Shown: piece by piece, positions 1 to 60,557 of the stretch | Layout: every line of letters begins with the position of its first letter | Position numbering within the stretch: position 1 is the stretch's first letter | Source of the DNA: a virus | Reading direction: 5' to 3' (one strand) | IMG/VR virus record: IMGVR_UViG_3300042519_001303 | Span: 22,771 to 86,770 of that record | Length of the DNA: 64,000 nt | Notes under the pieces: model-generated | Seen by the model: only the letters and a program-made list of their open reading frames with translations | The model's database searches: none | What the model was told of the DNA's origin: nothing | Made by a program: the position numbers and the translations under genes

Positions 1-249
1 GATCCAGTATCTGGTTCTTCAATGCAACCAATGTCAATACCAAGTTCGCCCATGCTTTCATCATCTGGATCATCTGGTGGAGGTGGTTCTTACCATGAAG
101 GTAGTACTGTAACTATTTCACCAGTAATAAATATGACGTCAACAGGTAATAACGGCGCTGTAAGTGAGTATGATTTAAGGTCTATGGCCAAAAAGATTGC
201 AAAGTTAATTGAACAAGAAGCAAATATAACCAAATTTAGGAGTATGTAA
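1..249 (+). CDS. Tape measure protein C-terminus (partial, runs off the window start)
   Basis: Frame open from base 1; Ser/Gly-rich stretch then 'VTISPVINM...AKKIAKLIEQE', typical of tape-measure C-termini; directly precedes baseplate genes. Confidence 0.6.
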   Translation, partial: DPVSGSSMQPMSIPSSPMLSSSGSSGGGGSYHEGSTVTISPVINMTSTGNNGAVSEYDLRSMAKKIAKLIEQEANITKFRSM

Positions 250-2465
250 TGGCTGATTACAAGGGTGATTACGATGATCTTTTTACTTTTTTAGAAGGAA
301 CTCAACCAGGCTCTGGAAAAGACCCAGATGCATCTAAAAGCGTTACCAATGATCCGTTTGGCCTGTACCCAAATAAATCGAGAACTGTTCGTCTTAACAA
401 TGCTACTGATCAATTGGAAGCACATACCCAAGTACTGCCAAAAGGTTTTATTAGAAACTTAGTAACAAATCAAGGTGGAAACCTGGCTCAATTTCCAAAC
501 ATACGATGCAATTTTCAATTTAACCCACAAGATATTCAACATCAAATTGAAGCAAGAAAAGATATGTATTTACCAATCTTGCAAGATCCCTCACAGCTTA
601 ATCAACCAATGGCTGGTAATGCAACATTTGCTTTTGAATTAATATTTGACAGAAGTATGGAAGTCAATAGTAACCGTTCATTAACTGTTACTAATGATGA
701 GGGAACTATGCCAGACCCTAAGTCTCCAGAAACTGTTGGTGTATTCCATGACTTACGTGTACTATATTCAATAATTGGACAGGGACTTAGTTCTGAGTTA
801 ATGGAAGCGCAACTAGCTAAATTGAAACAAGACGTAAAAAATTACGCTACCGTAAACTACAAGCAGTTAAATATCCAAGCAACAGCAACGGCTGGTAATC
901 CTGTTACTACTTTTCAACCTTTAAATACAGATGGCGGGGTATACGCTGAAGATGGCGACGCTGATTACGACTTAAACTCAAAAAAGACTGCTGATTTTTT
1001 AACAAATATTGATAGTGATCCAAGTGGCGGTATTAAATTTATGAGTGATTTAAATGTTGGAAACTCTGCATTCTTGATACCTCAACCATGTCGTGTTATT
1101 TTTTCTCCAATGTTTATGGTTGATGGTTTTGTAATGAATACAAATGTTTTGTTTACAAAGTTTAGTGCAAAGATGATTCCAATACAATGTAAAGTATACT
1201 TACAGATGCAAGCAATTTATATTGGTTTTGCTAGAGCTAAGACATTTATAACTGCACAGATAGAAGAAACTCAAGAACAAAATGATGAAGAACTAACTAC
1301 ATATACAAATAACCTAACCACACTACGTAAGTTGCTCGAAACTCATCTTCAGCGTATTACGGTTGCCTACAATGCAGACCCAAGAATACTTTCTGATGGG
1401 GGCATACCTGACGCAACACTTGAATACTCACAGTCAATTACCTCAACAAAATCAGGGGCAAACAGTGAAAGTTTTGGTCTGATATATCAACCATTTTGGA
1501 TGTTTGCTACTAAAAATTTTTGGTACAACCGACCATATGCAATAACAGGAGGTACCAGCCTTATATCTGAGGCTAAACCTCAATCTACTTCAAATGATCC
1601 ATACGCCATTTATGAGCCTACCGTACTACTAAAATTTGCTAATCCAGAACTCATACCTTGTCTTACCCCATATGGAGTCCCTGGTATTACTGTAGAGCTT
1701 TCACAGACAGTTGATGATAGGAAAGCCATAAGAAAAAAAGTATTTGAAGATATGAGTAGTGACAACCCAGTTGTTGACATAAAAGTATTCTCTTACATTT
1801 ATGGACCATTTAATAGTGAAACAGATGCACGTGCATTCACAGCAACAATACCAAGTGATAGAAAATCTAAGGTCCCAACGGGGAGAGTAGGGGAATACAC
1901 TACAGGATATGCATTTAGAGATACAGATGGCTGGGATGACTTTACTAAGAAACCTAAAAACTGGACGTTAGGAACTAGCACTTTTGATCCAGTATATAAT
2001 GGTTTAAACAAAGGTTCTCAAGCCATAAATATATCAACAGCTAATAGCTCAGGTAGTAACATTAAAACTAGATTAGACCAACTATTGGAAACTTTAGATT
2101 ATCCTGAGACAGACAGTGACCAAGCCAGAAAACTCTATATAGAAACCTCTTCGGTAGATAAAGAAATTAGTGACCCTAGCTGGGATGCTAGCAAAGTAAG
2201 TAGCAATAGTGCTAATGGTTACAATGCAGTTCCATTTGACGTATATCAAAAACTACCTAACTCTTTACTAGATTTAGTTGATGATGTTCACGATCTATCT
2301 AATAAATATTTTGCTGTAGTAACAGTAGTTGCTGTATATTACAATATAGCCGCACCTGGAAATGAAGCTGGTGGTTCTGCGCTAGATAGATCAGTTATTA
2401 TAGTAAAAGGTGACAATACTAGATTTAAAGATACTCTTTCACCCATTTACAGTGTGGTAGCATGA
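249..2465 (+). CDS. Tail tube initiator / baseplate hub-associated protein
   Basis: 'FQFNPQDI' and 'FELIFDR' motifs of contractile-injection tube-like N-terminal domains; sits between tape measure and LysM gene. Confidence 0.55.
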   Translation: MADYKGDYDDLFTFLEGTQPGSGKDPDASKSVTNDPFGLYPNKSRTVRLNNATDQLEAHTQVLPKGFIRNLVTNQGGNLAQFPNIRCNFQFNPQDIQHQIEARKDMYLPILQDPSQLNQPMAGNATFAFELIFDRSMEVNSNRSLTVTNDEGTMPDPKSPETVGVFHDLRVLYSIIGQGLSSELMEAQLAKLKQDVKNYATVNYKQLNIQATATAGNPVTTFQPLNTDGGVYAEDGDADYDLNSKKTADFLTNIDSDPSGGIKFMSDLNVGNSAFLIPQPCRVIFSPMFMVDGFVMNTNVLFTKFSAKMIPIQCKVYLQMQAIYIGFARAKTFITAQIEETQEQNDEELTTYTNNLTTLRKLLETHLQRITVAYNADPRILSDGGIPDATLEYSQSITSTKSGANSESFGLIYQPFWMFATKNFWYNRPYAITGGTSLISEAKPQSTSNDPYAIYEPTVLLKFANPELIPCLTPYGVPGITVELSQTVDDRKAIRKKVFEDMSSDNPVVDIKVFSYIYGPFNSETDARAFTATIPSDRKSKVPTGRVGEYTTGYAFRDTDGWDDFTKKPKNWTLGTSTFDPVYNGLNKGSQAINISTANSSGSNIKTRLDQLLETLDYPETDSDQARKLYIETSSVDKEISDPSWDASKVSSNSANGYNAVPFDVYQKLPNSLLDLVDDVHDLSNKYFAVVTVVAVYYNIAAPGNEAGGSALDRSVIIVKGDNTRFKDTLSPIYSVVA

Positions 2466-2707
2466 AAACAACCTACTTATCAACAGATAGATATACACTT
2501 GATGCTTCTGGTCAAACTGCTTCTAGAAGTAAGTTTGTAGTTTCCACTTATGAAGTGTATGTAGCAACACATGGTGACACTTTTATGAATTTAAGTATAA
2601 GATTCTTAAATGATCAATCAAGGTACTGGGAAATTGCGGATATTAATCCGCAAGTGCAATGGCCTGATCAGATCACAGCTGGTACTTTGATACGGATACC
2701 ATTATGA
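2462..2707 (+). CDS. LysM / tail X-like baseplate protein
   Basis: 'GDTFMNLSIRFL...YWEIADINP...ITAGTLIRIP' LysM-like pattern; ATGA overlap. Confidence 0.8.
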   Translation: MKTTYLSTDRYTLDASGQTASRSKFVVSTYEVYVATHGDTFMNLSIRFLNDQSRYWEIADINPQVQWPDQITAGTLIRIPL

Positions 2708-3861
2708 TATCTAAGTCTTTAAACAATTTTGCTGGTGTAACCACACTAGTCATCAATAACATGCAAGTTTTATATAATTCTGTACTAGAGTATGATCTCT
2801 CATTATCAGAAAATAAGCATGATTTGTTAGTTATAACTATGACCGGTATTTCTCCAAGAGCTGTAACAGATTACATAGGAGCACCAGTTAAGTTTTTTCT
2901 AGGTTCTTCAAGTGGAAGAAGTCAAACTTTTAATGGATATGTTTCTTACACTGAACCTTTTTCAAATAACAGAGACGGCTTTGTAAATAAAAGCCCCATA
3001 CAGTTAACAAAGCTTTACTGTGTGGGTGCTTCATTTGTAATGAAAGAAGTAAGATCAAAGGTATGGGACTACCCAACATTGACTGATATTATTAATGATA
3101 TATCTTCTAGATATAGATTTAGTATTGATTACCCAACAGACTCATATCAGCCTATTCGTTTAGTACAGGCTACTGAGAGCGATTGGTCTTTTTTAAATAA
3201 AGTATGTAAAACATTTGGTTTATCTTTTACATTACATGGAACTCATTTGCATATATGGGATAGGTCAAAAGCAACAGGAAGATTGTCTTCTTATCATGTG
3301 GCTGTTACTTCTTCAAAAACACAAGCTAACCAACCATTTTCGGTATTAAATTTTGAAGCTACTCTTGGAAGAATATCGTCTTCAGTAAATGCAAGTAAGT
3401 CAATTGTAACTGTATTAGATAATCAAAACAATGTGCATACTGTTACTTCAGAAGATATTGACTACAATCCGGGTAGCAGTGCATCTAAAGTATTCAAAAA
3501 ACCACTGTATTACTCAGCAAATTCTTTAGAAGAAGGTTTAAAAATTGTAGATTACAATGATAAAAGTAACTATATATATAACGCTACAATAAAAGTGATG
3601 TATGGTGCTGGTGCAGTACCTGGTGGTTTAATAGACCTAAAGGGCTATTCATCAGATTTTGATGGAATATGGTATGTAACGGATGTTAAACATTTAGTAA
3701 AATCAGAAAACTATGTAACCGAACTTTCAGTAATTAAAGATTCTAAATATGAAGATACACCAACACTTACTTTAACAAAAAAGTTTTCAAACCCTCCTGA
3801 CTCATTTTTATTAAACGATAAATGGGTAGCAGAGACTTCTGAGGTGATGCAGTATGCCTAG
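2704..3861 (+). CDS. Baseplate hub (gpD / gp27-like)
   Basis: 'QATESDWSFL' and 'GIWYVTDVKH' motifs; follows LysM gene. Confidence 0.8.
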   Translation: MISKSLNNFAGVTTLVINNMQVLYNSVLEYDLSLSENKHDLLVITMTGISPRAVTDYIGAPVKFFLGSSSGRSQTFNGYVSYTEPFSNNRDGFVNKSPIQLTKLYCVGASFVMKEVRSKVWDYPTLTDIINDISSRYRFSIDYPTDSYQPIRLVQATESDWSFLNKVCKTFGLSFTLHGTHLHIWDRSKATGRLSSYHVAVTSSKTQANQPFSVLNFEATLGRISSSVNASKSIVTVLDNQNNVHTVTSEDIDYNPGSSASKVFKKPLYYSANSLEEGLKIVDYNDKSNYIYNATIKVMYGAGAVPGGLIDLKGYSSDFDGIWYVTDVKHLVKSENYVTELSVIKDSKYEDTPTLTLTKKFSNPPDSFLLNDKWVAETSEVMQYA

Positions 3862-4117
3862 TTCAGATATCAGTCTATATAGAGCTCTTGTAATTAGATC
3901 ATTAGACCAGGAAGTACACGTAAAGATACCATCAATTCTTGGTGCAAATGAAACTATAACTATGCATAGGCCCACTGAAGTTGGTTCAGAATGGCCACCA
4001 GCAGAAGGTGCTCAGTTAATTGTTGCTATTGAGGGAGAAAATTTTAACAAGGTGTATTTAATAAGCAACATTACCGATACTACAACCATTAATAGTATTA
4101 ATGGTGGAAGCGCTTAA
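3854..4117 (+). CDS. Short baseplate spike protein (gp5/gpV N-terminal OB-fold-like)
   Basis: 'VHVKIPSILG...PPAEGAQLIVAIEGENFN' resembles the spike OB fold; between hub and gp25. Confidence 0.6.
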   Translation: MPSSDISLYRALVIRSLDQEVHVKIPSILGANETITMHRPTEVGSEWPPAEGAQLIVAIEGENFNKVYLISNITDTTTINSINGGSA

Positions 4118-4130
4118 TCGAGAGGATTTT

Positions 4131-4529
4131 ATGAAAGTAATTAAAACACCATTTAGCTTTGCAGGTGGTAAAACTGAAGTAACTAAAGATACTGTTACAA
4201 TCATAAATCAAAAGATTGAAAGTATATTAAACACTCCAAAATTCTCAAGAATACTTCACCCATTATATGGTAGTAATATTGCAATGCTAATTAATGAATA
4301 CCCGAGTGAAATAATATTGCTTGATGCAAAGGTGGAAGCTTTGATGGATTTAGAAGAAAATCTATCTGGTGCTACAGTATTAGACATGCGTTTTGATGTA
4401 TCCTCAATTACCAGTTCTGACCCAATTCTTAATGTATACCTTACATACAGACTACCTATTGGGACTATACTAGGTAGTACTGTAAAAATAGCTATACCAG
4501 GTATAGTTACCGAAGACACGATTGTGTAG
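4131..4529 (+). CDS. Baseplate wedge protein gp25/gpW-like
   Basis: 'ILNTPKFSRILHPLYGS' matches the gp25 'T..GER...P.YG' pattern; RBS GAGG before ATG 4131. Confidence 0.75.
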   Translation: MKVIKTPFSFAGGKTEVTKDTVTIINQKIESILNTPKFSRILHPLYGSNIAMLINEYPSEIILLDAKVEALMDLEENLSGATVLDMRFDVSSITSSDPILNVYLTYRLPIGTILGSTVKIAIPGIVTEDTIV

Positions 4530-4537
4530 GTTGAGTA

Positions 4538-6013
4538 ATGGATCAATCATTTAATTACGCCAGTAGAACATATAGCACCATTAGACAAGACCTTCTTAAT
4601 CGTGCGGCCCTTGTTGCCCCAGAGTGGACGGATAGAGACCCATCAGATTTTGGTATGTTATTTGTCGACCTGTGGTCATATATGGGTGACATTATGAATT
4701 ACTATATTGATCGGGCAGGTAGGGAAGCTTTTATAACTACAGCAACTCAACGTGAAAGCTTAATTGCTTACGCAAACATGTTTGGGTACAAACCTAGTGG
4801 TAGAAGATCATCCACAGCTAATGTCTTTATAGCTAATGGTTCTTCTGCTTCAGCTAACATATACACAGTTAATATTGGAGACAAGTTTTCTGCTGTTTCA
4901 AACAACACTACTTATAACTTCTATGCCTCCAGTGAAGCCCTTATCACTCCTGGTCAATCTGCTGAAATATCAGTTACTGAAGGAATTAGAATAGTTGATG
5001 AAACTGTAGTGTCATCAGCAACTGGTTTGCCTAACCAAGTTTATACGTTGGCTAACTCCGATGCAGATGCAGCAACAATATCTGTTACTGTCACTGAGGA
5101 GGGTGTAGCAAATACTTGGGTTAGTTATGAAACTATTGAAGATATACCACAAAACTCTAGAGGATTTAGTGTTTTTCTATCCTCTTCTGGAAAAGTTCAG
5201 TTAAGTTTTGGTAATAGAATTAATGGGTACATACCACCTTCTGGATCTACTATTAAAGTTAGCTACACTAGAAGTTCTGGTGCTGATGGAAACATTGGAA
5301 GTAACTTAATAAAAACACTTGTTAGTACCGCACCTTCATACATAACAATTAGTAGTTCAAGTGTAGCTTCTGGTGGTACCAATGGAGAAACTGCGGAAAC
5401 ACTTAAGTCTAATATAATATCCTATATTAGAACACAAGATAGAGCTGTAACTCTAAAAGATTATGAAGACCTTACTAGGTCTGTAAGTGGTGTTTATAAA
5501 GCAGTTACTACTTATACTCCGGGATCTGGATCAGCAAGTGGTGGAGCTTCTGTAGTACTTTATGGGTTACCCTATGTAAGTGATTTTTTAACAACTACCT
5601 CGCATTCAATTACTGTCCCTGCTGATTTAAAAACAGATATTGTTAACCGAGTTACACCACGTTCAATGCTTGGTGTAACTCCCATTGCAGCAAGCACTAT
5701 TACTTTAAACAGACTAAACATAACTGCTGAGATTTTTGTTTCAGATGGTTTTGTAAGTAATGCAATAGCTAATAATGTATACAACGCCATAGATGGTTTA
5801 TTATCTTTTGACGCTACTGATTTTGGTAAACAAATAAGAAAGTCTGACGTGTATAAAGCAATTATGGCTTTAAATGGTGTTGATTACATTGAAATATCAA
5901 ATTTTCAAATCTTAAATTCAAGCAATGCAGAAGTTACTGTATTAGATCCAACACACCTAATAAGAAAAGGTTCTATTTCTTTTACCTTTTCTGGAGGGAT
6001 GGTAGCTTCATAA
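4538..6013 (+). CDS. Baseplate wedge protein J-like
   Basis: 'PEWTDRDPSDFG', 'FGNRINGYIPP', 'QDRAVTLKDYE' motifs. Confidence 0.9.
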   Translation: MDQSFNYASRTYSTIRQDLLNRAALVAPEWTDRDPSDFGMLFVDLWSYMGDIMNYYIDRAGREAFITTATQRESLIAYANMFGYKPSGRRSSTANVFIANGSSASANIYTVNIGDKFSAVSNNTTYNFYASSEALITPGQSAEISVTEGIRIVDETVVSSATGLPNQVYTLANSDADAATISVTVTEEGVANTWVSYETIEDIPQNSRGFSVFLSSSGKVQLSFGNRINGYIPPSGSTIKVSYTRSSGADGNIGSNLIKTLVSTAPSYITISSSSVASGGTNGETAETLKSNIISYIRTQDRAVTLKDYEDLTRSVSGVYKAVTTYTPGSGSASGGASVVLYGLPYVSDFLTTTSHSITVPADLKTDIVNRVTPRSMLGVTPIAASTITLNRLNITAEIFVSDGFVSNAIANNVYNAIDGLLSFDATDFGKQIRKSDVYKAIMALNGVDYIEISNFQILNSSNAEVTVLDPTHLIRKGSISFTFSGGMVAS

Positions 6014-6014
6014 G

Positions 6015-7784
6015 ATGGCACGTAGATCTTTTACAATAAGAAGAGGATCATTTGAAGGTGGTTCGTATCTCCAATACTATGCTGGTGGAATTGGTGCTTC
6101 ATTAGGAGGACCACAAAATTATACTGCTTCTGCTTCTGCTACATACATAAAAGGTGACAATGTACAAACTGCCCCGGTTCTAAGCACAGCAATTGCGGCA
6201 GGTAATACACTTTCAAATGCTGCATTTTTTGAAGCTAGGTCAACTGACTACAAACAAGTTACCCTAAAATGGGGCCTTACACTCTATGAACTTGGAGTAA
6301 CCGCAGAACCATACTCAGTACATATTGTGTACTCGCCATTTGGTTGTCCAGATACTATTGCAGAAGGTTCTGTGCTCATAGAAACACGTACAATTGAAGA
6401 GTTTGTACATGCAGGTGTAGAAGGTGAGTGGGCCTACTATACCATGTTTATTCGATATAAATCAAATAACGACGAGTATTATGAACCTGTATCAAAACTT
6501 GAAGTATTAGTCCCATCAGACTACGGCTCAACAGAAAGTCTGTATGCAAAAATACCAGCCTACTACCAATATCAAGATGAAGTTGGTACTGGGGATCTTA
6601 AAAAATACTTATCAGTATTTGGTTGGGACTTAGACAAGTTTAGAACTACTTTAGATTTTGCAATATCAATGAAAGATCCTAGGGTAGCAAATGAAGAAAC
6701 ACTAGATTATATTGCTAGTGATTTAGGAGTAGGTGTTACTGTAAGTGATCTTGGTTCTCAAAGACTTAGAGACCTACTTACTATAGTAAGTAACTCACGT
6801 AAGAAAAATGGTACAGGTGCTTCTATTGAGCAGTTTTTAGAAGCAGTAATTGGCGCAAACGTAGAAATAGATGGTAACAATAAAACTATTAAGGTTTACT
6901 CACAGAGAGTAAACCTAATTAAAGACCCTAAATTTGTTTTTGGGGTAGCAGCTGGATTAGATGGAGGTGGACCTGCTGATGAATCGGCTGTTATATATGA
7001 ATCTGGGGAAGTAGGAACAGCCCAAGCAAGCATCATTGATGGAGGTTCTCCTAGTGATGTTTTTTCTTCAGCTGCTGTATCTACAGAAAAATGGGTAAGT
7101 TTTACTAATCCTAATAATGTTATTCATGGCATTTTAGAAACAGCCAACGCTGACGTAAAAGTCATTGGCGGAGATGTTTTCTATGTTTCAATAAATATTC
7201 CCAACACCACCAGTGGTTCTAGAAACATACCTGGATCAATAGACAATATTGCAATATATAACTCATCAGGTGTAAGCGGTGGTAGTGCAAGTTTAATAGC
7301 ACTAGACTCTGAGCCACAAACTTTTGGTACTACAAAGTATTGGAGAATAGTAATTCCAGATACAGTAACCACATACACTCCAGCAAAATTAACTATTGAG
7401 TATAATACTAATTACAATAATCAAAATATTTCATATTCTGATTTCTCTTATGTTTTACTAGAACGAAATTATATTGGTAAGTATTTTGATGGAGATACTG
7501 TTGAGGGAGGGTGGTTACTAAATGGAAATACTTCTGTAGGAAGTATCTCTGATTATCGATGGCTTGGAACACCCCATAATTCTTTTTCGGTGTATACAAC
7601 TAACTGGAAAAAAACTACCCAGGTAGTTTCTAGATTATTAAAAGACTTGCTTCCAGTTAAAGAAACTATTTCTTCTGGCACTCTATACAGCAATGGATAT
7701 TACAAACCAACAGTTGGTAACATTGTAAAAACACCAAATTATATGTATACTATTACATACGATAAGATACCAGGAGATACATGA
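6015..7784 (+). CDS. Baseplate/tail protein (P2 gpI-like domain)
   Basis: 'LYAKIPAYY...LKKYLSVFG...LDYIASDLG...KKNGT' gpI-like region and 'YFDGD' motif; follows baseplate J. Confidence 0.7.
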   Translation: MARRSFTIRRGSFEGGSYLQYYAGGIGASLGGPQNYTASASATYIKGDNVQTAPVLSTAIAAGNTLSNAAFFEARSTDYKQVTLKWGLTLYELGVTAEPYSVHIVYSPFGCPDTIAEGSVLIETRTIEEFVHAGVEGEWAYYTMFIRYKSNNDEYYEPVSKLEVLVPSDYGSTESLYAKIPAYYQYQDEVGTGDLKKYLSVFGWDLDKFRTTLDFAISMKDPRVANEETLDYIASDLGVGVTVSDLGSQRLRDLLTIVSNSRKKNGTGASIEQFLEAVIGANVEIDGNNKTIKVYSQRVNLIKDPKFVFGVAAGLDGGGPADESAVIYESGEVGTAQASIIDGGSPSDVFSSAAVSTEKWVSFTNPNNVIHGILETANADVKVIGGDVFYVSINIPNTTSGSRNIPGSIDNIAIYNSSGVSGGSASLIALDSEPQTFGTTKYWRIVIPDTVTTYTPAKLTIEYNTNYNNQNISYSDFSYVLLERNYIGKYFDGDTVEGGWLLNGNTSVGSISDYRWLGTPHNSFSVYTTNWKKTTQVVSRLLKDLLPVKETISSGTLYSNGYYKPTVGNIVKTPNYMYTITYDKIPGDT

Positions 7785-8035
7785 GCTTAGTAATAGCTTC
7801 ACTAGCTGTATATAAAGTGCTACAACTTATTGACTCGTTGTTGCCAAAAGAAGCAATGCCTTGGGTCAAAATATTGGCCTCAATAGCCCTATCCTATATT
7901 TCGTGTTTTGCCATAGACACAGATAATATACTTGTAGATGGTGCTGCAATTGCAGCTTTATCTGGTACAGTGCATTCAGCACTCCGCCTATTGACTCTTA
8001 GTGGAGATGCTGCACACCGCAAGAGTCTTCGATAG
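7781..8035 (+). CDS. Small membrane protein, possible holin
   Basis: 84 aa with 2-3 hydrophobic segments and a basic C-terminus. Confidence 0.45.
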   Translation: MSLVIASLAVYKVLQLIDSLLPKEAMPWVKILASIALSYISCFAIDTDNILVDGAAIAALSGTVHSALRLLTLSGDAAHRKSLR

Positions 8036-45226: not shown

Positions 45227-47440
45227 CTAGGCTAGGAATCCGATAAGAGCTTTCTCAATTTCCTTAGGAAGATCCATGACGTTATCAATACCAATTGCTA
45301 CGTCACCACCCTTTTTAGCCACTAGATCTTTGGCGTAACCAGGAGTACCAAGACCTACTAACAACCAATACTGTCCGGGTTCTACGAATGGTTTAATTGA
45401 ATTAACATACGACCATTCTCCGTCAGTGAGTATAACAACCAGGTGTCGTTGTTTACCCGCATTTTGATTTTTAATTTGGCGTAATCCTTCAAGTGGATTC
45501 GTTCCACCACCATCATGAATTAGCACTGGCGTGATCGGTTCATCGTTATCCCAGATCATGTATGGTTCAGTGTCAAAGGTAGATACTGTGCATGGAACAC
45601 CTAGGCTATCGCAAGCACTACGAATACCATAAGCAGCAACGGAAAGTTGATCCATCCATCCTCCCATAGATCCTGAAGTATCTAACATAACAGATACCGC
45701 AAGACTATGGCCATGAGCGCCTTCGCCTTCGTAGTCCACCCAGTAGTCTGAGTCACCAGGTTCGTGCATCTTGTATGACGTTGGGTCAAGCACACCATGT
45801 TCCTGACGGAAACGCCATGCTGGGTCGGCAGTCAATGCTAATGGTTCAAGAGCCGATAACATTTGATTGGCTACTGCAATAGAATCAACTAACAAGTTAC
45901 TTGGCATTTCTGATACTGCACCGTTATGTGGCAAGTCTCTCATAAGTTCTGAGTTGATCTCGGAGATTAGTTGACCTATTTCTTCGTCAGTAACAACACG
46001 CTTCATTGCTTCTGCCGCTTTTTGTTTAAGATCCTCACGGATCTTGGCATAGTCAACATTTTCTTTGATTTGACCGCCAGTGCCTTTAGTACCACCAGTG
46101 TTGTTAATGAATTCTGTTGCAGTCTCATTACCATCTTTAGTGGGTGCTTCACCGTTAGCCTTACCTTCACCTTCCTTACCACCACCAGGTGACTCTTCTC
46201 CCTCCTCAGAGGATTCTTTCTTGGATTCACCTGGTTTTGTTTCCCAACCTTTTTCTTCGTTACCAAACGTTGGCTTCTTAGTTACTTGGGTTGCACCATT
46301 GTGCCCACTCTTGTGGTCACCTCCTGTAGGGTTAGGAGTACCTTTGCCTTCACGACCTCTACTATCGTCTGGTCGTGGTTCCTGACCATTGTTTGCACCA
46401 GTGATCCACTGCGTGATTAGGTTATGCAATTGCCATACAGCAATAACAACATCTGTTGCTGATCTCGACTCACGGTATACATGGACTTGGTTTTCAATTT
46501 GATCAACTAATGATATATCCATATCATTATCTAATGCAAACTTATATGCCAACTGACGAGCATTATCCATAAGCTCTTGATCTAAGTAAGATCTAGTCGT
46601 AACAAACGGCCATGAGTAACCAGGCTTAGTATCATCATTGATGTAGTTCAGCACAAGAGCAGTAAAATAGTCAATCAATGGAGGACTATTTATCACCATC
46701 TCTTCTTCCATGCGTCCATCTTCCAATAGATTCCATGATATTTGGATAGCATCAGCAAACGGTCTGTAGTGTTGCTGATGTGCATACCACTTATTAGTAA
46801 TGTTAGTTGCTGGATTAACAACTCTTTCACCAAATGGCACTCTGTCAAATACTGTAACTAATGAGCTACGAACATCCTCATAAGCTGGATACAGATTTGC
46901 AAACTCATCACCCCAACGAGTGTCGTGTGGGTTGATTGCAACAGGTAATAACCCATTGTCCATTAGTGCACAGTCAAACAGAGCTGACCACGGAAGAGTG
47001 CACAAAATGTGACCGCCTTCGTGATAAACAACTCCCTTGAGAGCAGCCAAAAGGCTACCAATCTTGTCCATGTCTGACGGATCAACCATACCCATATCGA
47101 ACGAGATGTTTATACCTTTAAAATCCGTAGCAGCATTTACTGATCTAGTTTCATTACGGTAATAGTTAACATCTAGCTTGAGTGGTGGATTGATACCCAA
47201 AGAAGTAAGAACCTTACGTGCTCGGTCGGCCAGCACATATGCAGTGGCCCTAATAGCTCGTGGATCATGCTTGCTTTTGGCAGAAAGGAAAGTCTTTTCA
47301 ACTATTTGGTCGTTTGAGTAAATTAACTCTAAGACTTCTTTGTTGTAAGACTCTCTAATCTTTGTAGCTTCACGACGGTTAAAGGAGCGGGCACTAGCAC
47401 GTCGTGCTAGTGCCTCCTCATCAAACTTTTTCTTTACCAT
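45227..47440 (-). CDS. VWA-domain protein with N-terminal HExxH domain (CobT-like)
   Basis: 'HEGGH', 'NLLEDGRME', acidic linker, MIDAS 'DTSGSM...GGT...LTDGE'. Confidence 0.85.
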   Translation of the reverse strand: MVKKKFDEEALARRASARSFNRREATKIRESYNKEVLELIYSNDQIVEKTFLSAKSKHDPRAIRATAYVLADRARKVLTSLGINPPLKLDVNYYRNETRSVNAATDFKGINISFDMGMVDPSDMDKIGSLLAALKGVVYHEGGHILCTLPWSALFDCALMDNGLLPVAINPHDTRWGDEFANLYPAYEDVRSSLVTVFDRVPFGERVVNPATNITNKWYAHQQHYRPFADAIQISWNLLEDGRMEEEMVINSPPLIDYFTALVLNYINDDTKPGYSWPFVTTRSYLDQELMDNARQLAYKFALDNDMDISLVDQIENQVHVYRESRSATDVVIAVWQLHNLITQWITGANNGQEPRPDDSRGREGKGTPNPTGGDHKSGHNGATQVTKKPTFGNEEKGWETKPGESKKESSEEGEESPGGGKEGEGKANGEAPTKDGNETATEFINNTGGTKGTGGQIKENVDYAKIREDLKQKAAEAMKRVVTDEEIGQLISEINSELMRDLPHNGAVSEMPSNLLVDSIAVANQMLSALEPLALTADPAWRFRQEHGVLDPTSYKMHEPGDSDYWVDYEGEGAHGHSLAVSVMLDTSGSMGGWMDQLSVAAYGIRSACDSLGVPCTVSTFDTEPYMIWDNDEPITPVLIHDGGGTNPLEGLRQIKNQNAGKQRHLVVILTDGEWSYVNSIKPFVEPGQYWLLVGLGTPGYAKDLVAKKGGDVAIGIDNVMDLPKEIEKALIGFLA

Positions 47441-47455
47441 GATTCCTCCTCAGGA

Positions 47456-48736
47456 TCAGTATGGTTCCTCATCAGAGATGAGGGACGTAAGGTCAACTGC
47501 TGGTGCAGTAGCGGCAGGTTCAAACTCATCACGCATCATGACCGCAATACCACGATCTTTGATGATCTCGTTCACCACAATCTTTTCTTGTGATGACACG
47601 AACTGGCCCATGAAGGCCCAGAGACTGAAGTCAACTCCAAGATGAACCAAGTCACCTTCAAGCAACTGTAATGCTCTAGTACCAACAGGGGTAGTAATGC
47701 TACGTTGTGCACGAGCATTACGTAATGCTTGACCAAGCAGACGAACTGCTGGTGACTTGATCAATTTCTTCTCAACCTCTTCGTCATATCCCCATTCAAG
47801 GAGCTTGAAGCGGTTAGCGAAGGCCTCGTTTGTCTTGGCCATTCCAGCGTAGCCTGGGTTCCATGAAGCCATGATCCACAGGTTCTTATTCGCCACTACT
47901 GTTTCTGGGCGATAAGCACCGTGGTGCGTCTCAACACCAGTCACTTCGTCAACCTCAACCGTGCCTTTCCAGACAGGCTTACGGATGTTGACAAACTGAT
48001 GACGATTGTCAAGCAGTGGGTGAATAGCCGCTGTTACTGAACCTGACATGGCGTTAACCTCGTCAAGGTACAAGATACCGCCAAGACGAGCGGCGAGAGC
48101 AACGATGCCCTCCATCCACACAAGCCGTTCTTGTCCATTCACGATGATCGGACGATACTGACCGAATAGGTCGTGGTCGGTAATCGCTGATGAACCTGCA
48201 AGCAGGAACAACGGCAATGGCTTCTGAAGGCCGAGCAACTTCGCAATACGGAACGCTTGAACTTGGATCAAGTATGTCTTACCCGACTGGGTATCGCCTA
48301 CCAAGGCAACGGATACTGGGTAACCATCGTTCTCATCACGACGATTGAAATAACCTTCCATTACTTCAAGGTCTGTCTTACCGCCTGCCAGAACACGAGA
48401 CACATAATTGCGTGGATCGATATTCGGACGGAAGTCGTCCAATGCGGGGTCGTCGAGACTGTCGATACGCATATCGCTGATGATTACGTTGCCAACTTGT
48501 GATGTTATGGTGCTGGACGGGGCGGCGTTTGCAACGCTAGCACGTCCAATCAACTCCACACCCTTAGGCAATATCTCGACAGTGCCTAACAGTGTATCGT
48601 CAAACATCACTTGAATCTTGCTACCAGGTCCCCCTGGTACAAGCGTACTGCGGGTGATTACCCCTTCAGCATCCTTGAATGGTGGGTACTTGCCCACCAC
48701 TCTCATACCTACTCGCAACTCTTTGACACTGGCCAT
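47456..48736 (-). CDS. MoxR/CbbQ/CobS-type AAA+ ATPase
   Basis: Walker A GDTQSGKT, 'LYLDEVN', 'NPGYAG...NEAFANRF'. Confidence 0.88.
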   Translation of the reverse strand: MASVKELRVGMRVVGKYPPFKDAEGVITRSTLVPGGPGSKIQVMFDDTLLGTVEILPKGVELIGRASVANAAPSSTITSQVGNVIISDMRIDSLDDPALDDFRPNIDPRNYVSRVLAGGKTDLEVMEGYFNRRDENDGYPVSVALVGDTQSGKTYLIQVQAFRIAKLLGLQKPLPLFLLAGSSAITDHDLFGQYRPIIVNGQERLVWMEGIVALAARLGGILYLDEVNAMSGSVTAAIHPLLDNRHQFVNIRKPVWKGTVEVDEVTGVETHHGAYRPETVVANKNLWIMASWNPGYAGMAKTNEAFANRFKLLEWGYDEEVEKKLIKSPAVRLLGQALRNARAQRSITTPVGTRALQLLEGDLVHLGVDFSLWAFMGQFVSSQEKIVVNEIIKDRGIAVMMRDEFEPAATAPAVDLTSLISDEEPY

Positions 48737-50383: not shown

Positions 50384-50728
50384 CTACTCATTAGGGTGTT
50401 CTGCTTGCCAATTGACAATACAATCATGGTTGCAGAAGCCCCACATGAACTGAATGCGTTCAACAGGGGTAAAGTAGTCAAGAGTGTCAACAAAGTTCTT
50501 GAGATTATCTATAATCTCATCGGCACGTTCGGGAAAGTTGATCGCTTCCGTACGCAACGTTATGAGCATTGTTGCGTCATCATAAGGAATAGCTATTACT
50601 TCCTGACCTCTGCATTGTGGGCACTTCAACCCAATACTCAGGGCAATGTCTTGCCCTGGGAAGTAATCAGGTGGTGCAACCCACCCATTGATCTCTTCCT
50701 TTGACTTGAATTTAACTAACTTATTCAT
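50384..50728 (-). CDS. Hypothetical protein with Cys motifs
   Basis: CPQC...FCNHDC; start overlaps the upstream stop. Confidence 0.5.
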   Translation of the reverse strand: MNKLVKFKSKEEINGWVAPPDYFPGQDIALSIGLKCPQCRGQEVIAIPYDDATMLITLRTEAINFPERADEIIDNLKNFVDTLDYFTPVERIQFMWGFCNHDCIVNWQAEHPNE

Positions 50729-51200
50729 ATGTGCTACCCCATCCGTAACACTTGGGGCATTCTGCCCCGTCATGAACTCCATGGCTCATTAAAGAACCAG
50801 TTCCATGACAATTAAGGCAATTGGTTTTACCATTGCTTGTGCTAAAGGTGTCGCTGGGTGGAGATGTAGTGAATCCCAAGTGCATGAGCAACCATTCGGG
50901 AACATCTGTACATTCCCCTTCCTCATCAGGGGGTCCTTGAATAACAATTGGACCAACTAGTACGTCACCAGCTGCTACACAGCCGTAAACGTCGAAGACC
51001 TCCCATAAATCGGTGGCAATGAGGTTGAAGTCTAACTTCAACATTTTTCCTTCCTCATTGCACCAGATTGTTATCTCTGGTGAGGCTGGCACACTTTCAA
51101 TGAGCCCACCTATAACGTCAGATAGGGGTTTATACCCCTCTAAATCAATCTTTCTAATGGTTCCTACTGTTTCTATAACCAATGAGATGGTCATATCCAC
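50721..51200 (-). CDS. DUF3846-like protein with C-terminal DnaJ-type Zn motif
   Basis: 'L...IGG.IE.V......WCNEEGK...L..N..AT...D.L.G'. Confidence 0.7.
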   Translation of the reverse strand: MDMTISLVIETVGTIRKIDLEGYKPLSDVIGGLIESVPASPEITIWCNEEGKMLKLDFNLIATDLWEVFDVYGCVAAGDVLVGPIVIQGPPDEEGECTDVPEWLLMHLGFTTSPPSDTFSTSNGKTNCLNCHGTGSLMSHGVHDGAECPKCYGWGSTYE

Positions 51201-51223
51201 TCCTCCTTTGTTGTTTTAGTGGG

Positions 51224-51296
51224 CGCACCAGGCAGGGGTCGAACCTACAACCTACAGATTAGAAGTCTGTTGCTCTATCCATTGAGCTACTGGTGC
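51224..51296 (-). tRNA. tRNA-Arg(UCU)
   Basis: GCACCAG acceptor stem, D arm GCTC/GAGC, anticodon arm ACAGA-CTTCTAA-TCTGT, GTTCGA T loop. Confidence 0.93.
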
Positions 51297-51298
51297 AG

Positions 51299-51772
51299 TG
51301 TATGTTTTTATTTATACAGTAAAAAACATACAAAAACCTGACTATGTGATCACGGGAGCAGTACCCCGAGGTAAAACCAGTCCGCCTGGTTTTCTAATCC
51401 ACGTCTTATGTATAAGCTTAAGAATGCGTTACAACAAGCAACTACCGCAAACCGCAACCCTGTTATACATAGGTAGGAGTAACACCTGTATCCCTGCAGT
51501 GTAATTTGCCCGATAGGGAATTCCGGGTTACTAGGGCTTACACATTGCCCATCAGCAACTTGATACCCAGTAGCTTATTCCTGGGGACATATTTAGGGGG
51601 TAAGACAGCGATGCTGCTAAAGGGCGTCTTTCGCCCGGCATCTAAGCCAAAACTGCCTTACCCAACGCTTTGTAGAATGACATCATTAAAGGGTATACAC
51701 CTAACAACAAGCCCTAGATATCACTCAGCAAGTGTCGTGTCCTCTACTTAGGCCAAGTATGTCAAATGGCCC
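51299..51772 (-). ncRNA. Candidate large multi-helix structured ncRNA upstream of tRNA-Arg
   Basis: About 10 nested helices, including two long-range ones; G-U pairs form on the - strand; no credible ORF. Confidence 0.7.
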
Positions 51773-51776
51773 AATC

Positions 51777-51998
51777 CTAAACTCTTTGTCTGCGGTAGTA
51801 CTCCACCGCACGATTATAAGCGGCAACGGCTGTAATTGTTTCTTCACCATCACTCCAGCCGATGTTGTCAGCTAAGCGAATAATTCGCATGCCAACCTTT
51901 TGGCCGTAAGTCTTGATGATGTACTCCTCTACCTCGACGTTCTCATTGTTAGTGAGTCGTCGGTAGAGCTTGTCGCCCAAGTTATTTAAAGGATTCAT
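51777..51998 (-). CDS. Hypothetical protein
   Basis: GGAGG RBS; ATGA overlap. Confidence 0.55.
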   Translation of the reverse strand: MNPLNNLGDKLYRRLTNNENVEVEEYIIKTYGQKVGMRIIRLADNIGWSDGEETITAVAAYNRAVEYYRRQRV

Positions 51999-52378
51999 GA
52001 CACCTCCTTGTGTGCATAAGAGTTGCCGAGCATCCTCGGATGTCGTGTGGGCAGATTATGCCCGCTACGGCGGAGTAAGAATATCCGCTGATTTACCGAG
52101 GCAACAGTTCGCCCCAATCTTTTAGCCATATCTTTGGGGAGATAACCTTCCCCATACATACTCACTATCTGCTCGTCGTCCCAATCGGTCCATCTGGCCT
52201 TGCCAGTTCTGTCTTTGAAGAACTGGTCTATTTTGCTGATGAACGCTTCTGACTCTTCATCATTTAACCCCATTGCTGAAGCGAGCATCTTCAAAGCCTG
52301 GTCAGGCTCGAGGATACCATCAACACAAAGGTCAACGATGAGTCTTTCCTTAGTCATAATGTCTCCTTTCGTTGTCAT
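51995..52378 (-). CDS. HTH / GcrA-Myb-like DNA-binding protein
   Basis: 'RWT...D..I..MY..G....MA..LGRT..SV..R'; true start may be 52357. Confidence 0.6.
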   Translation of the reverse strand: MTTKGDIMTKERLIVDLCVDGILEPDQALKMLASAMGLNDEESEAFISKIDQFFKDRTGKARWTDWDDEQIVSMYGEGYLPKDMAKRLGRTVASVNQRIFLLRRSGHNLPTRHPRMLGNSYAHKEVS

Positions 52379-52385
52379 AACATTA

Positions 52386-52462
52386 TGGTGCCACCAGCAG
52401 GACTTGAACCTGCGACCCAGGCATTATGAGTGCCTTGCTCTAACCAACTGAGCTATGGTGGC
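52386..52462 (-). tRNA. tRNA with CAU anticodon (Ile2/lysidine or elongator Met)
   Basis: GCCACCA acceptor stem, AGGCA-CTCATAA-TGCCT, GTTCAAG, encoded CCA; paired G1-C72 excludes initiator. Confidence 0.93.
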
Positions 52463-52921: not shown

Positions 52922-53015
52922 ACAAAAAAAACCAACCGATAGGTGCGTAACCTATCGGTTTTTAGATACAAAAAAAGAGAGGGGGTAGTGAGGGCATTAC
53001 ACCCTCACCACCCCG
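52922..53015 (-). terminator. Tandem rho-independent terminators
   Basis: GGGGTAGTGAGGG/CCCTCACCACCCC hairpin + U tract, then AACCGATAGG/CCTATCGGTT hairpin + U tract. Confidence 0.8.
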
Positions 53016-60431: not shown

Positions 60432-60505
60432 GCCGGATGATGCGTCCGGTTGACGCAAGGTGTCTTATAAACACCCGTAGACGGGTTCAACTCCCGTATC
60501 CGGCA
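60432..60505 (+). tRNA. Atypical tRNA-Ile(UAU)
   Basis: GCCGGAT/ATCCGGC acceptor stem, GGTGT-CTTATAA-ACACC anticodon arm, ACGGG-TTCAACT-CCCGT T arm; unusual D arm. Confidence 0.8.
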
Positions 60506-60557
60506 CTGCTATACTTGTAAAGATCGTGTGTAATTAACCACTTTTAAAAGGAGTATA

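What the first reader, a model, noticed from the sequence alone, without database searches (positions are those of the whole stretch)
51299..51772. Large, densely structured non-coding RNA candidate directly upstream of tRNA-Arg
Seen: about 470 nt with no credible ORF in a gene-dense genome. Helices (+ coordinates): 51751-55/51767-71; long-range 51709-17/51531-39 enclosing 51653-63/51598-608, 51622-26/51632-36 and 51566-70/51581-85; 51509-13/51523-27, whose loop (51515-19) is complementary to 51491-95 (possible pseudoknot); 51463-71/51407-15; 51373-80/51386-93; 51353-57/51364-68; 51299-309/51322-32. Several A-C mismatches on + become G-U pairs on - (e.g. GGGUAAGGCAG/CUGUCUUACCC), fixing the strand as -, the same as the tRNA. 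Known: GOLLD and ROOL giant RNAs occur in phages beside tRNAs but are usually longer. I do not recognise tmRNA, RNase P or intron signatures. Inference: a compact relative or a new class of large phage RNA, released from the transcript by RNase P cleavage at the tRNA 5' end.
Basis: partly seen in the sequence, partly recalled or inferred. Interest (0 to 1): 0.85.

Follow-up and report, generated by a model that had tools for sequence, protein, structure and literature searches.

The report
New four-pseudoknot RNA of lake phages
The gene-free stretch in front of this uncultured lake phage's arginine tRNA gene encodes a real, intricately folded non-coding RNA of roughly 430-480 bases that fits no catalogued RNA family and whose job is still unknown.

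Summary
Confirmed. Window 51298-51776 (minus strand) lies between a 73-aa ORF and tRNA-Arg(UCU) in a 86.8-kb uncultured lake phage that carries WhiB. The same stretch, in the same tRNA-Met ... tRNA-Arg synteny, occurs in 5 IMG/VR and 4 JGI metagenome contigs, giving 8 distinct sequences.

A 106-nt core has 76 invariant positions, while the flanking proteins fall to 47-71% identity. On a hand-drawn structure of 85 pairs, 97.2% of cells pair and 17 pairs show compensatory changes. No shuffle of 500 reaches this, and slid controls give 1-6 such pairs.

G-U pairs fix the strand as minus: 42 cells against 2. No reading frame is open through the core in all sequences.

Contigs from four metatranscriptome studies cover only this stretch, not the flanking genes.

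There is no Rfam, ARAGORN, cultured-phage or prokaryote-genome match.

It is a new, narrowly distributed RNA family of the GOLLD/ROOL/T4 RNAC-RNAD kind. Function and RNase P release are inferred, not shown. This sequence was not seen before in the scan; other unrelated lake-phage RNAs were.

The parts
51298..51776 (-). Whole non-coding RNA region (RNA numbering n = 51777 - window position; 479 nt in the window, 403-423 nt in relatives)
   Evidence: Gap between the 73-aa ORF and tRNA-Arg; conserved in 9 other contigs; alignments A1-A3
51751..51771 (-). H1: 5' hairpin starting just after the stop codon of the upstream ORF. Its loop (51758-51763) forms pseudoknot PK3 with 51586-51591.
   Evidence: A hairpin is predicted in all 8 sequences with different stem sequences. 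PK3: 6 pairs, 100% of cells paired, 2 pairs compensatory in 4 of 8 sequences
51739..51744 (-). P1 5' strand: closing helix with 51348-51353
   Evidence: 6 pairs, 91.7% of cells paired, 4 pairs vary on one side only. The window itself has 2 mismatched cells
51676..51735 (-). Variable insertion domain (P2), shared only with L020. It contains 51709-51717, which is complementary to core 51531-51539.
51596..51665 (-). P3 multi-stem domain (outer stem 51653-65/51596-608; inner hairpin P3b 51634-36/51622-24)
   Evidence: 13 pairs, 3 of them compensatory (G-C to A-U or U-A in 3 of 8 sequences), 89.8% of cells paired
51489..51594 (-). Invariant core. Helices: Pa 51581-85/51566-70, Pb 51547-56/51530-37, Pc 51524-27/51509-12. 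Pseudoknots: PK1 51538-43/51499-504, PK2 51515-18/51492-95.
   Evidence: 76 of 106 positions invariant in 8 sequences. PK1 has 1 and PK2 has 2 compensatory pairs; Pa, Pb and Pc never vary. Model R1 finds one copy per contig. 1-nt indels inside the core
51394..51488 (-). Variable domain (P6/P7); the window's version differs from all relatives
   Evidence: Alignment A3; different local hairpins in each sub-group
51373..51393 (-). P8 hairpin
   Evidence: 6 pairs, 1 compensatory (A-U to G-C in 3 sequences), 97.9% of cells paired
51340..51367 (-). P9 hairpin (51364-67/51354-57). Its loop 51359-63 pairs with 51340-44 (PK4), and the P1 3' strand (51348-53) lies between them.
   Evidence: P9: 3 of 4 pairs compensatory. 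PK4: 2 of 5 pairs compensatory (L005, L020)
51299..51332 (-). P10: A/U-rich 3' hairpin preceded by a U run; it ends 2 nt before tRNA position +1
   Evidence: 11 pairs, 100% of cells paired, 3 compensatory
51220..51297 (-). tRNA-Arg(UCU) immediately downstream of the RNA
   Evidence: ARAGORN; Rfam tRNA 71.4 bits at 51224-51296. Adjacent in every homologous contig that reaches it
52386..52462 (-). tRNA-Met(CAU), first gene of the conserved block tRNA-Met / HTH protein / small ORF / RNA / tRNA-Arg / DUF3846
51777..51998 (-). Upstream 73-aa ORF. It is 89-92% identical in 3 relatives and 46% in L005, and is replaced by an unrelated small ORF in L013, so it is not an obligate partner of the RNA.
   Evidence: no Pfam or PHROG family
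50721..51200 (-). Downstream DUF3846 protein with a C-terminal zinc-ribbon-like tail
   Evidence: Pfam PF12957, E = 2e-14. Relatives in L007 and L008 lack the RNA

Best explanation
The stretch is a gene for a stable, intricately folded non-coding RNA of a family not yet catalogued.

Anatomy:
- The RNA is transcribed from the minus strand inside a small phage tRNA block, in the order tRNA-Met, HTH protein, small ORF, RNA, tRNA-Arg.
- A 5' hairpin (H1) docks by its loop onto the strand just before the core (PK3).
- A closing helix (P1) brackets a variable domain, a multi-stem domain (P3), and a nearly invariant 106-nt core.
- The core holds three hairpins tied by two interleaved pseudoknots (PK1, PK2).
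- After the core come a second variable domain and two hairpins, one of which forms a fourth pseudoknot (PK4).
- An A/U hairpin (P10) abuts tRNA-Arg.

Shown here: conservation, base-pair covariation, the strand, absence of coding potential, single copy per phage, and presence in RNA libraries without the flanking genes.

Inferred:
- The RNA is made as part of a tRNA-containing precursor that starts after the two terminator-like hairpins at 52934-53014.
- Its 3' end is set by host RNase P cutting at tRNA-Arg position +1, and P10 then protects the new end.
- The RNA acts in trans during infection. Its invariant double-pseudoknot core would be a binding or catalytic surface for a conserved partner from the host or phage translation/tRNA apparatus. 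The variable domains would serve only as scaffolds.
For: Homology and synteny:
- 9 further contigs carry the RNA: 5 from IMG/VR and 4 from JGI metagenomes. They give 8 distinct sequences, all in the same gene order.
- The core has 76 of 106 invariant positions and 91% mean column identity. The flanking proteins are 47-71% (HTH) and 34-87% (DUF3846) identical.

Structure:
- 85 pairs in 15 helices, with 97.2% of 668 cells paired (shuffled mean 92.9%, 0 of 500 shuffles as high).
- 17 pairs carry changes on both sides (shuffled mean 8.5, 0 of 500 as high).
- Controls slid by -3 to +3 columns give 39.5-47.1% paired and 1-6 such pairs.
- Each of the four pseudoknots has 1-2 compensatory pairs.

Strand and coding:
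- 42 G-U cells on the minus-strand reading against 2 on the opposite strand.
- All six frames have stops in the core in 3 of 8 sequences, and the invariant core holds 1-nt indels.
- One copy per genome or contig.

Expression: in 4 of 4 laid metatranscriptome runs, from 4 studies, all 6 non-tRNA contigs fall inside 51346-51761. Two are identical to the window across its variable domain. Depth is 0 over 50700-51187 and 51798-52346.

Context: no promoter-like or terminator-like site lies on the minus strand between 52934 and 50600. Large structured RNAs of unknown function beside phage tRNA genes have precedents: ROOL and GOLLD (passages read) and T4 RNAC/RNAD (passage read).
Against: - There are only 8 distinct sequences from about 4 lineages, so each compensatory change may reflect one or two events.
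- The structure was drawn by eye from these same sequences, which inflates its score against the slid controls (a caveat stated in the output).
- Core helices Pa, Pb and Pc never vary, so covariation gives them no support.
- P1 has 2 mismatched cells in the window itself.
- The MFE z-score is only -2.46 and is the same on both strands.
- The expression data are low-depth contigs (depth 2-5) without strand or end information, and DNA carry-over into RNA libraries cannot be excluded.
- No transcript ends, no RNase P cleavage and no partner were observed; the function is entirely inferred.
- The family is rare. Five different core and 3'-domain patterns recovered only the same 5 IMG/VR contigs.
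Confidence: 0.6

Rival explanations
1. Self-assembling RNA-only particle of the ROOL/GOLLD kind. Copies of the RNA would associate through loops into a multimer, perhaps a cage that holds tRNAs or ribosomal parts.
For: It shares the genomic habit of ROOL and GOLLD: phage-borne, next to tRNA genes, large, with several pseudoknots (passages).
Against: No Rfam similarity to GOLLD or ROOL. At about 430-480 nt it is shorter than ROOL (average 581 nt) and GOLLD (>800 nt). I found no loop that stays palindromic across the 8 sequences (by-eye reading of A3). The conserved loops are used in intramolecular pseudoknots.
Confidence: 0.1
2. Ribozyme. The invariant double-pseudoknot core would catalyse a reaction, for example self-cleavage that helps release tRNA-Arg or the RNA itself.
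For: Near-total invariance of paired and unpaired core nucleotides with freely varying peripheral domains is the conservation pattern seen in catalytic RNAs (general knowledge).
Against: No match to any ribozyme family in Rfam at E <= 10. The helix order (Pb, loop strand, Pc, loop strand, then the two tail strands) is not the HDV-like, hammerhead or twister topology (my reading, recalled topologies). No cleavage data exist.
Confidence: 0.1
3. Cis-acting leader. The structure would exist to control maturation, stability or amount of the downstream tRNA-Arg (or expression of the DUF3846 gene behind it), not to act as a free RNA.
For: It is always fused directly to tRNA-Arg, with hairpin P10 ending 2 nt before position +1. 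A conserved UAGA just before P8 is complementary to the tRNA-Arg anticodon loop.
Against: A 400-nt, four-pseudoknot fold is far larger than any known tRNA leader. The UAGA complementarity is only 4-6 nt, which is chance level. RNA-library contigs cover the RNA body, and no piece laid there continues into the tRNA (low depth). DUF3846 relatives occur without the RNA (L007, L008).
Confidence: 0.12
4. A very divergent member of a known family (tmRNA, RNase P RNA, GOLLD 3' domain, group I intron, 6S/Ms1).
For: It has a closing helix, several pseudoknots and a variable region that begins with a GCN codon after a conserved CUGGC, which superficially recalls tmRNA.
Against: ARAGORN finds no tmRNA. 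Rfam 15 gives only tRNA and noise (best 13-25 bits against gathering scores of 55-100) on the window and on two homologues. There is no tRNA-like domain. The short GCN-started frames differ in length and sequence in every sub-group (by-eye reading).
Confidence: 0.03
5. Not an RNA gene at all: a DNA-level element (origin, packaging or regulatory region) or an unrecognised small protein gene.
For: The plus strand carries ORFs of 68 and 81 aa. The MFE z-score is the same on both strands.
Against: The G-U asymmetry is 42 against 2. Compensatory changes occur in 17 pairs. All frames have stops in the core in 3 of 8 sequences, and the core holds 1-nt indels. RNA-library contigs are confined to the stretch.
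Confidence: 0.02

Closest known systems
ROOL and GOLLD RNAs (Rfam RF03087 and RF01998; accessions recalled and also named in earlier scan notes)
   Same: Large, multi-pseudoknotted non-coding RNAs of unknown function carried by phages and prophages, often next to tRNA genes. One GOLLD lies downstream of a tRNA-Met (passages of bioRxiv 10.1101/2024.12.08.627333, passages of PMC5737381).
   Different: No sequence or structure match to either Rfam model, even at E <= 10. It is smaller (about 430-480 nt against an average of 581 and >800). The helix layout is different. Known distribution is tiny (10 contigs including the window's record, all from lake water). Multimer formation is untested.
Phage T4 RNAC and RNAD (species 1 and 2 stable RNAs of the T4 tRNA region)
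   Same: Phage non-coding RNAs transcribed from within the tRNA gene cluster, with biological roles unknown (PMC3014915, one passage read).
   Different: The T4 RNAs are much smaller (about 120-140 nt, recalled and also stated in earlier scan notes). blastn against 50,697 GenBank phage records matched only the tRNA part of the query.
MALAT1 / mascRNA arrangement of vertebrates (recalled, no call)
   Same: A long non-coding RNA whose 3' end is created by RNase P cutting at a downstream tRNA-like structure, with a terminal structure protecting the new end. This is the processing logic proposed here.
   Different: It belongs to another domain of life. The downstream element here is a genuine tRNA. 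P10 is a plain A/U hairpin, not a triple helix. Cleavage has not been shown here.
tmRNA
   Same: Several pseudoknots, a closing helix, presence in some actinophages (recalled), and a neighbourhood of tRNA genes.
   Different: No tRNA-like domain, no conserved tag frame, ARAGORN negative and Rfam negative.

Membership tests
GOLLD (Rfam) | Match to the family covariance model at or above its gathering score | tested here: not met
   cmscan of the window at gathering threshold gave only 2 tRNA hits. At E <= 10, on 901 nt around the RNA and on two homologous loci, there was no GOLLD hit.
GOLLD (Rfam) | Phage or prophage location, often near tRNA genes; length often >800 nt | tested here: inconclusive
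   The location criterion is met. The length criterion is not (403-479 nt). Family description.
ROOL (Rfam) | Match to the family covariance model | tested here: not met
   No ROOL hit at gathering threshold or at E <= 10.
ROOL (Rfam) | Homo-oligomeric nanocage | not testable with these tools
   Needs native gels or cryo-EM. No conserved palindromic loop was seen by eye in A3.
tmRNA | tRNA-Ala-like domain formed by the 5' and 3' ends, plus a tag reading frame | tested here: not met
   ARAGORN reports 3 tRNAs and no tmRNA in 64 kb. No tmRNA family appears in Rfam results. The short GCN-started frames are not conserved (reading).
Bacterial RNase P RNA | Match to RNase P covariance models (conserved P4 region) | tested here: not met
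   No RNase P family hit at E <= 10.
Group I / group II introns, known self-cleaving ribozymes, riboswitches, 6S | Match to the respective Rfam models | tested here: not met
   Only noise: the best non-tRNA hits on the RNA score 13.3 bits (LINC00901, gathering 55) and 24.8 bits (a Tetrahymena snoRNA, gathering 100).
T4 RNAC/RNAD | Sequence similarity to the T4 tRNA-region stable RNAs | tested here: not met
   blastn (word 11) against 50,697 phage records gave 775 records, all matching the tRNA part only, and 0 covering >= 80% of the query.
Candidate structured RNAs of IMG/VR (Fremin et al. 2023, PMC10690425) | Listed among the 8,495 IMG/VR motifs (29-151 nt) | not testable with these tools
The main text (passages) describes no motif longer than 151 nt and none like this one.

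The most novel reading that the evidence does not exclude
The invariant 106-nt double-pseudoknot core is a new functional RNA fold. It would be either a catalytic centre or a specific docking site for tRNA or the translation machinery, carried by lake actinophages. On this reading, the many uncatalogued RNAs now turning up inside lake-phage tRNA clusters form a hidden class of phage tools that act on host translation or on tRNA-directed defence.
Probability: 0.15. Interest if true: 0.85.

Novelty: new variant of a known kind. Interest (0 to 1): 0.62.

Why it matters
Large RNAs with several pseudoknots and a nearly invariant core are rare in bacteria and phages. Past examples turned out to be ribozymes, ribonucleoprotein cores or, recently, self-assembling RNA cages. 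This one adds a well-defined family with a testable four-pseudoknot model and first signs of expression in nature.

It sits in the same genomic niche (phage tRNA clusters) as GOLLD, ROOL and the T4 RNAC/RNAD species, none of which has a known function. That niche therefore looks like a recurrent home for functional RNAs, so a shared biological theme such as tRNA supply, translation takeover or counter-defence becomes worth testing.

At about 430 nt, with a 106-nt core, the RNA is small enough for probing, crystallography or cryo-EM.

Its value is limited by the narrow known distribution, an uncultured host and the absence of any functional clue.

Tried and rejected
Searches that found nothing new:
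- Rfam at gathering threshold and at E <= 10 on the window region and on two homologous loci gave only tRNA and noise. An antisense 'Plastid-ycf2' hit is the mirror image of the tRNA.
- ARAGORN found no tmRNA.
- blastn against GenBank phages matched the tRNA part only.
- Exact-pattern scans for more members used five different core or 3'-domain patterns in IMG/VR. They always returned a subset of the same 5 contigs (5, 5, 5, 4, 4).
- One pattern in JGI metagenomes returned 4 contigs.
- Two patterns in 185,579 prokaryote genomes returned 0.
- The pattern was badly designed: it demanded T where the window, L002 and L021 have C, so it could not find those.

Model searches:
- Covariance model R1 of the core found one copy in the phage and one in each known homologous contig. 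It found none in L003, L007 or L008.
- It could not be run on a large collection.

Protein route:
- The HTH neighbour has 21 homologous clusters.

Ideas tested and dropped:
- Coding potential.
- A DNA-level element.
- tmRNA-like mini-ORFs after the conserved CUGGC (not conserved, no tRNA-like domain).
- A MALAT1-like triple helix at P10. The upstream U run is on the wrong side of the G/C-containing base of the stem (by eye).
- Palindromic kissing loops (none conserved, by eye).
- A T-box-like contact between the conserved UAGA and the tRNA-Arg anticodon loop (4-6 nt, chance level).

Other checks:
- A blind scan of A3 for further covarying helices found nothing convincing beyond those already drawn.
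- A sigma-70 type promoter scan found none on the minus strand near the RNA. The consensus may not apply to the presumed actinobacterial host.
- Pfam and PHROGs on ten neighbours gave no RNA-related function.
- The part without cover (flanking genes) is low-depth contig data and is only a weak hint.

Supplementary files of Fremin et al. 2023 and Weinberg et al. 2017 could not be opened. A fragment of this RNA might be listed there.
Full report
WHAT IS THERE

The window is part of an 86,770-bp IMG/VR virus record, estimated 95% complete. The flagged stretch, 51298-51776, lies on the minus strand. It sits between the stop codon of a 73-aa ORF (51777-51998) and tRNA-Arg(UCU) (ARAGORN 51220-51297; Rfam tRNA 51224-51296, 71.4 bits).

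The local gene order on the minus strand is:
- tRNA-Met(CAU), 52386-52462
- a 127-aa helix-turn-helix protein (weak Sigma70_r4_2, PHROG 'transcriptional regulator')
- the 73-aa ORF
- the gap
- tRNA-Arg
- a DUF3846 protein

The phage has baseplate genes, DnaB, a family-A DNA polymerase, RecA and a WhiB regulator. WhiB is an actinobacterial family by established knowledge. The polymerase's best cultured relatives are Streptomyces phages, at only 33% identity. Eighteen lake-water DNA runs hold most of the stretch.

CHECK OF THE OBSERVATION

Folding energy is unimpressive. The MFE is -152.8 kcal/mol, z = -2.46, with 1 of 100 shuffles as good. The opposite strand scores the same, z = -2.48. The case therefore rests on comparison, not thermodynamics.

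The plus strand does carry ORFs of 68 and 81 aa, so 'no credible ORF' had to be tested.

RELATIVES

Searches with the two flanking proteins found 7 and 5 IMG/VR loci.
- BLAST of the RNA found it in all 5 HTH loci and in 4 of the 7 DUF3846 loci.
- Of the other three DUF3846 loci, one is cut at the contig end, and two distant ones (L007, L008) lack the RNA.

A core pattern found 4 more contigs in JGI metagenomes. After removing identical copies (L022 = L013, L019 = L021), there are 8 distinct sequences. They are 63-98% identical overall and fall into about four lineages. All contigs that reach far enough show the same tRNA-Met ... RNA-tRNA-Arg order.

Four further patterns returned only subsets of the same five IMG/VR contigs. 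Two patterns found nothing in 185,579 prokaryote genomes. blastn against 50,697 GenBank phage records matched only the tRNA. The family is real but, with the tools at hand, narrow.

CONSERVATION

A 106-nt core (window 51489-51594) has 76 invariant positions and 91% mean column identity. The neighbouring proteins of the same contigs are 47-71% and 34-87% identical.

Around the core, whole domains differ.
- The window and L020 share an insertion of about 45-60 nt.
- The domain after the core is unalignable between the window and the rest.

Single-base indels lie inside the invariant core (A3 columns 222, 230, 242, 265). In L005, L013 and L020 all six reading frames have a stop in the core. It is not a protein gene.

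STRUCTURE

I drew a structure by eye on alignment A3 and counted it. The final model has 85 pairs in 15 helices.
- 97.2% of 668 cells form standard pairs (shuffled mean 92.9%, 0 of 500 shuffles as high).
- 17 pairs show changes on both sides (shuffled mean 8.5, 0 of 500 as high).
- Sliding the 3' partners by 1-3 columns gives 39.5-47.1% paired and 1-6 such pairs.

Helices with compensatory pairs (compensatory pairs of total pairs):
- P3: 3 of 13
- P8: 1 of 6
- P9: 3 of 4
- P10: 3 of 11
- PK1: 1 of 6 (loop of Pb with 51499-504)
- PK3: 2 of 6 (loop of the 5' hairpin H1 with the strand just before Pa)
- PK4: 2 of 5 (loop of P9 with 51340-44)

Other helices:
- The closing helix P1 varies only by wobble changes and is imperfect in the window.
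- Pa, Pb and Pc never vary and so are untested.
- H1 is a hairpin in all 8 sequences, with different stems.
- A blind scan for other covarying helices added nothing.

Caveats. There are eight sequences and few independent events. The model was derived from the same data it is scored on.

The strand is settled: the pairs include 42 G-U cells on the minus-strand reading and 2 on the other.

It may be an alternative pairing, but it cannot be tested.

EXPRESSION

Six metatranscriptome runs share 6-10% of the sampled words of an 1,801-nt query that included both flanking genes. I laid four of them, from four studies.

Apart from partial, unlike matches on the two tRNAs (other organisms' tRNAs), all 6 contigs fall within 51346-51761:
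- X19: three contigs covering 51346-51761, from a close relative.
- X20: 51354-51537, no differences.
- X21: 51394-51594, two differences.
- X23: 51414-51556, no differences.

Depth is zero over the DUF3846 gene and over the 73-aa and HTH genes. X20 spans the window-specific variable domain without a difference, so it comes from this phage type rather than from a conserved core of some other phage.

These are low-depth contigs without strand or ends, and DNA carry-over is possible. The evidence is suggestive, not proof, of a stable RNA that outlasts its neighbouring mRNAs.

WHAT IT IS NOT

Rfam 15 (4,227 families) gives only tRNA at gathering threshold. At E <= 10, on the window region and on two homologues, it gives only noise. 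There is no GOLLD, ROOL, tmRNA, RNase P, intron, ribozyme, riboswitch or 6S hit. ARAGORN finds no tmRNA.

The short GCN-started frames in the variable domain differ in every lineage, and there is no tRNA-like domain. The upstream 73-aa protein is replaced by an unrelated ORF in L013, and DUF3846 relatives occur without the RNA, so neither is an obligate partner.

HOW IT PROBABLY WORKS

Shown: a conserved, covarying, non-coding, single-copy, minus-strand RNA fold that is present in RNA libraries.

Inferred steps:
1. No promoter-like or terminator-like site lies on the minus strand between two terminator-like hairpins at 52934-53014 and the end of the scanned region. The RNA is therefore probably made on one precursor with the tRNAs and small ORFs.
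2. Hairpin P10 ends 2 nt before tRNA-Arg position +1 in all copies. Host RNase P would therefore create the RNA's 3' end, leaving a terminal hairpin.
3. H1 and PK4 lie outside P1 yet pair into the body. The mature RNA must therefore span at least 51340-51771 (about 430 nt).
4. The core's invariance in paired and unpaired positions points to a precise three-dimensional surface that binds a conserved partner or catalyses a reaction. The recurrent placement among tRNA genes points to translation or tRNA biology. I cannot choose between partner binding, catalysis and self-assembly, and I give each reading a low individual probability.

COMPARISON AND NOVELTY

The nearest known things share habit, not homology.
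- ROOL and GOLLD are large pseudoknotted phage or prophage RNAs, often near tRNA islands. One GOLLD lies downstream of tRNA-Met, and both are now known to form cages (passages of bioRxiv 10.1101/2024.12.08.627333; PMC5737381).

Membership in any of them was tested and not met.

A large IMG/VR survey of structured RNAs reports motifs of 29-151 nt (passages of PMC10690425). Its lists are in supplements I could not open, so a fragment of this RNA may already be listed there. My two literature searches turned up no description of an RNA like this.

Within this scan, the sequence was not seen before. Several other unrelated, uncatalogued RNAs in lake-phage tRNA clusters have been noted, which makes the phenomenon look general and this case one more family of it.

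VERDICT

A genuine new RNA family with an unusually rich, testable structure and first expression evidence. Its distribution is narrow and its function unknown. Interest 0.62.

Noticed in passing
window 51676-51735 (and L020): The window and L020, which otherwise belong to different sub-groups, share an insertion of about 45-60 nt. It holds 9 nt perfectly complementary to the invariant 3' strand of core helix Pb (51531-51539). This could be an alternative pairing or switch. It shows no variation, so it is untestable here.
   Followed up: partly
window 51346-51761, run X19: The metatranscriptome contigs of X19 represent a ninth variant. Its 5' domain is window-like and includes the insertion, but its Pa loop and following junction match the L004 sub-group. 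This hints at recombination between RNA sub-types.
   Followed up: no
window 51393-51396 (RNA 381-384): An invariant UAGA just before P8 is complementary to the anticodon loop of the adjacent tRNA-Arg(UCU) (up to 6 nt in most copies). This is chance level for this length.
   Followed up: no
window 52934-53014, minus strand: Two strong terminator-like hairpins in tandem (15 and 11 pairs, each followed by a T run) close the preceding operon. They probably mark the start of the transcription unit that holds the tRNAs and the RNA.
   Followed up: no
window 51223-51296 and 52386-52462, opposite strand: Rfam 'Plastid-ycf2 5'UTR' matches (37-49 bits, below the gathering score of 65.7) lie exactly antisense to the tRNA genes. 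They are an artefact of that model resembling a reversed tRNA.
   Followed up: yes
window 1-8000: G+C is 34-37% in the first 8 kb against 41-49% elsewhere, although this part encodes baseplate proteins (GPD hub, Baseplate_J).
   Followed up: no
window 45227-48736, minus strand: An AAA_5 ATPase (PHROG 'porphyrin biosynthesis', CobS-like) is followed by a 737-aa protein with no family. This may be a CobS/CobT-like pair, as seen in aquatic phages.
   Followed up: no
window 51777-51998 and L013:2994-3179: The small ORF just upstream of the RNA is 89-92% identical in three relatives, more conserved than its neighbours. In L013 it is replaced by an unrelated 61-aa ORF.
   Followed up: partly
window 60432-60506: The phage has a third tRNA, tRNA-Ile(UAU), on the plus strand.
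   Followed up: no
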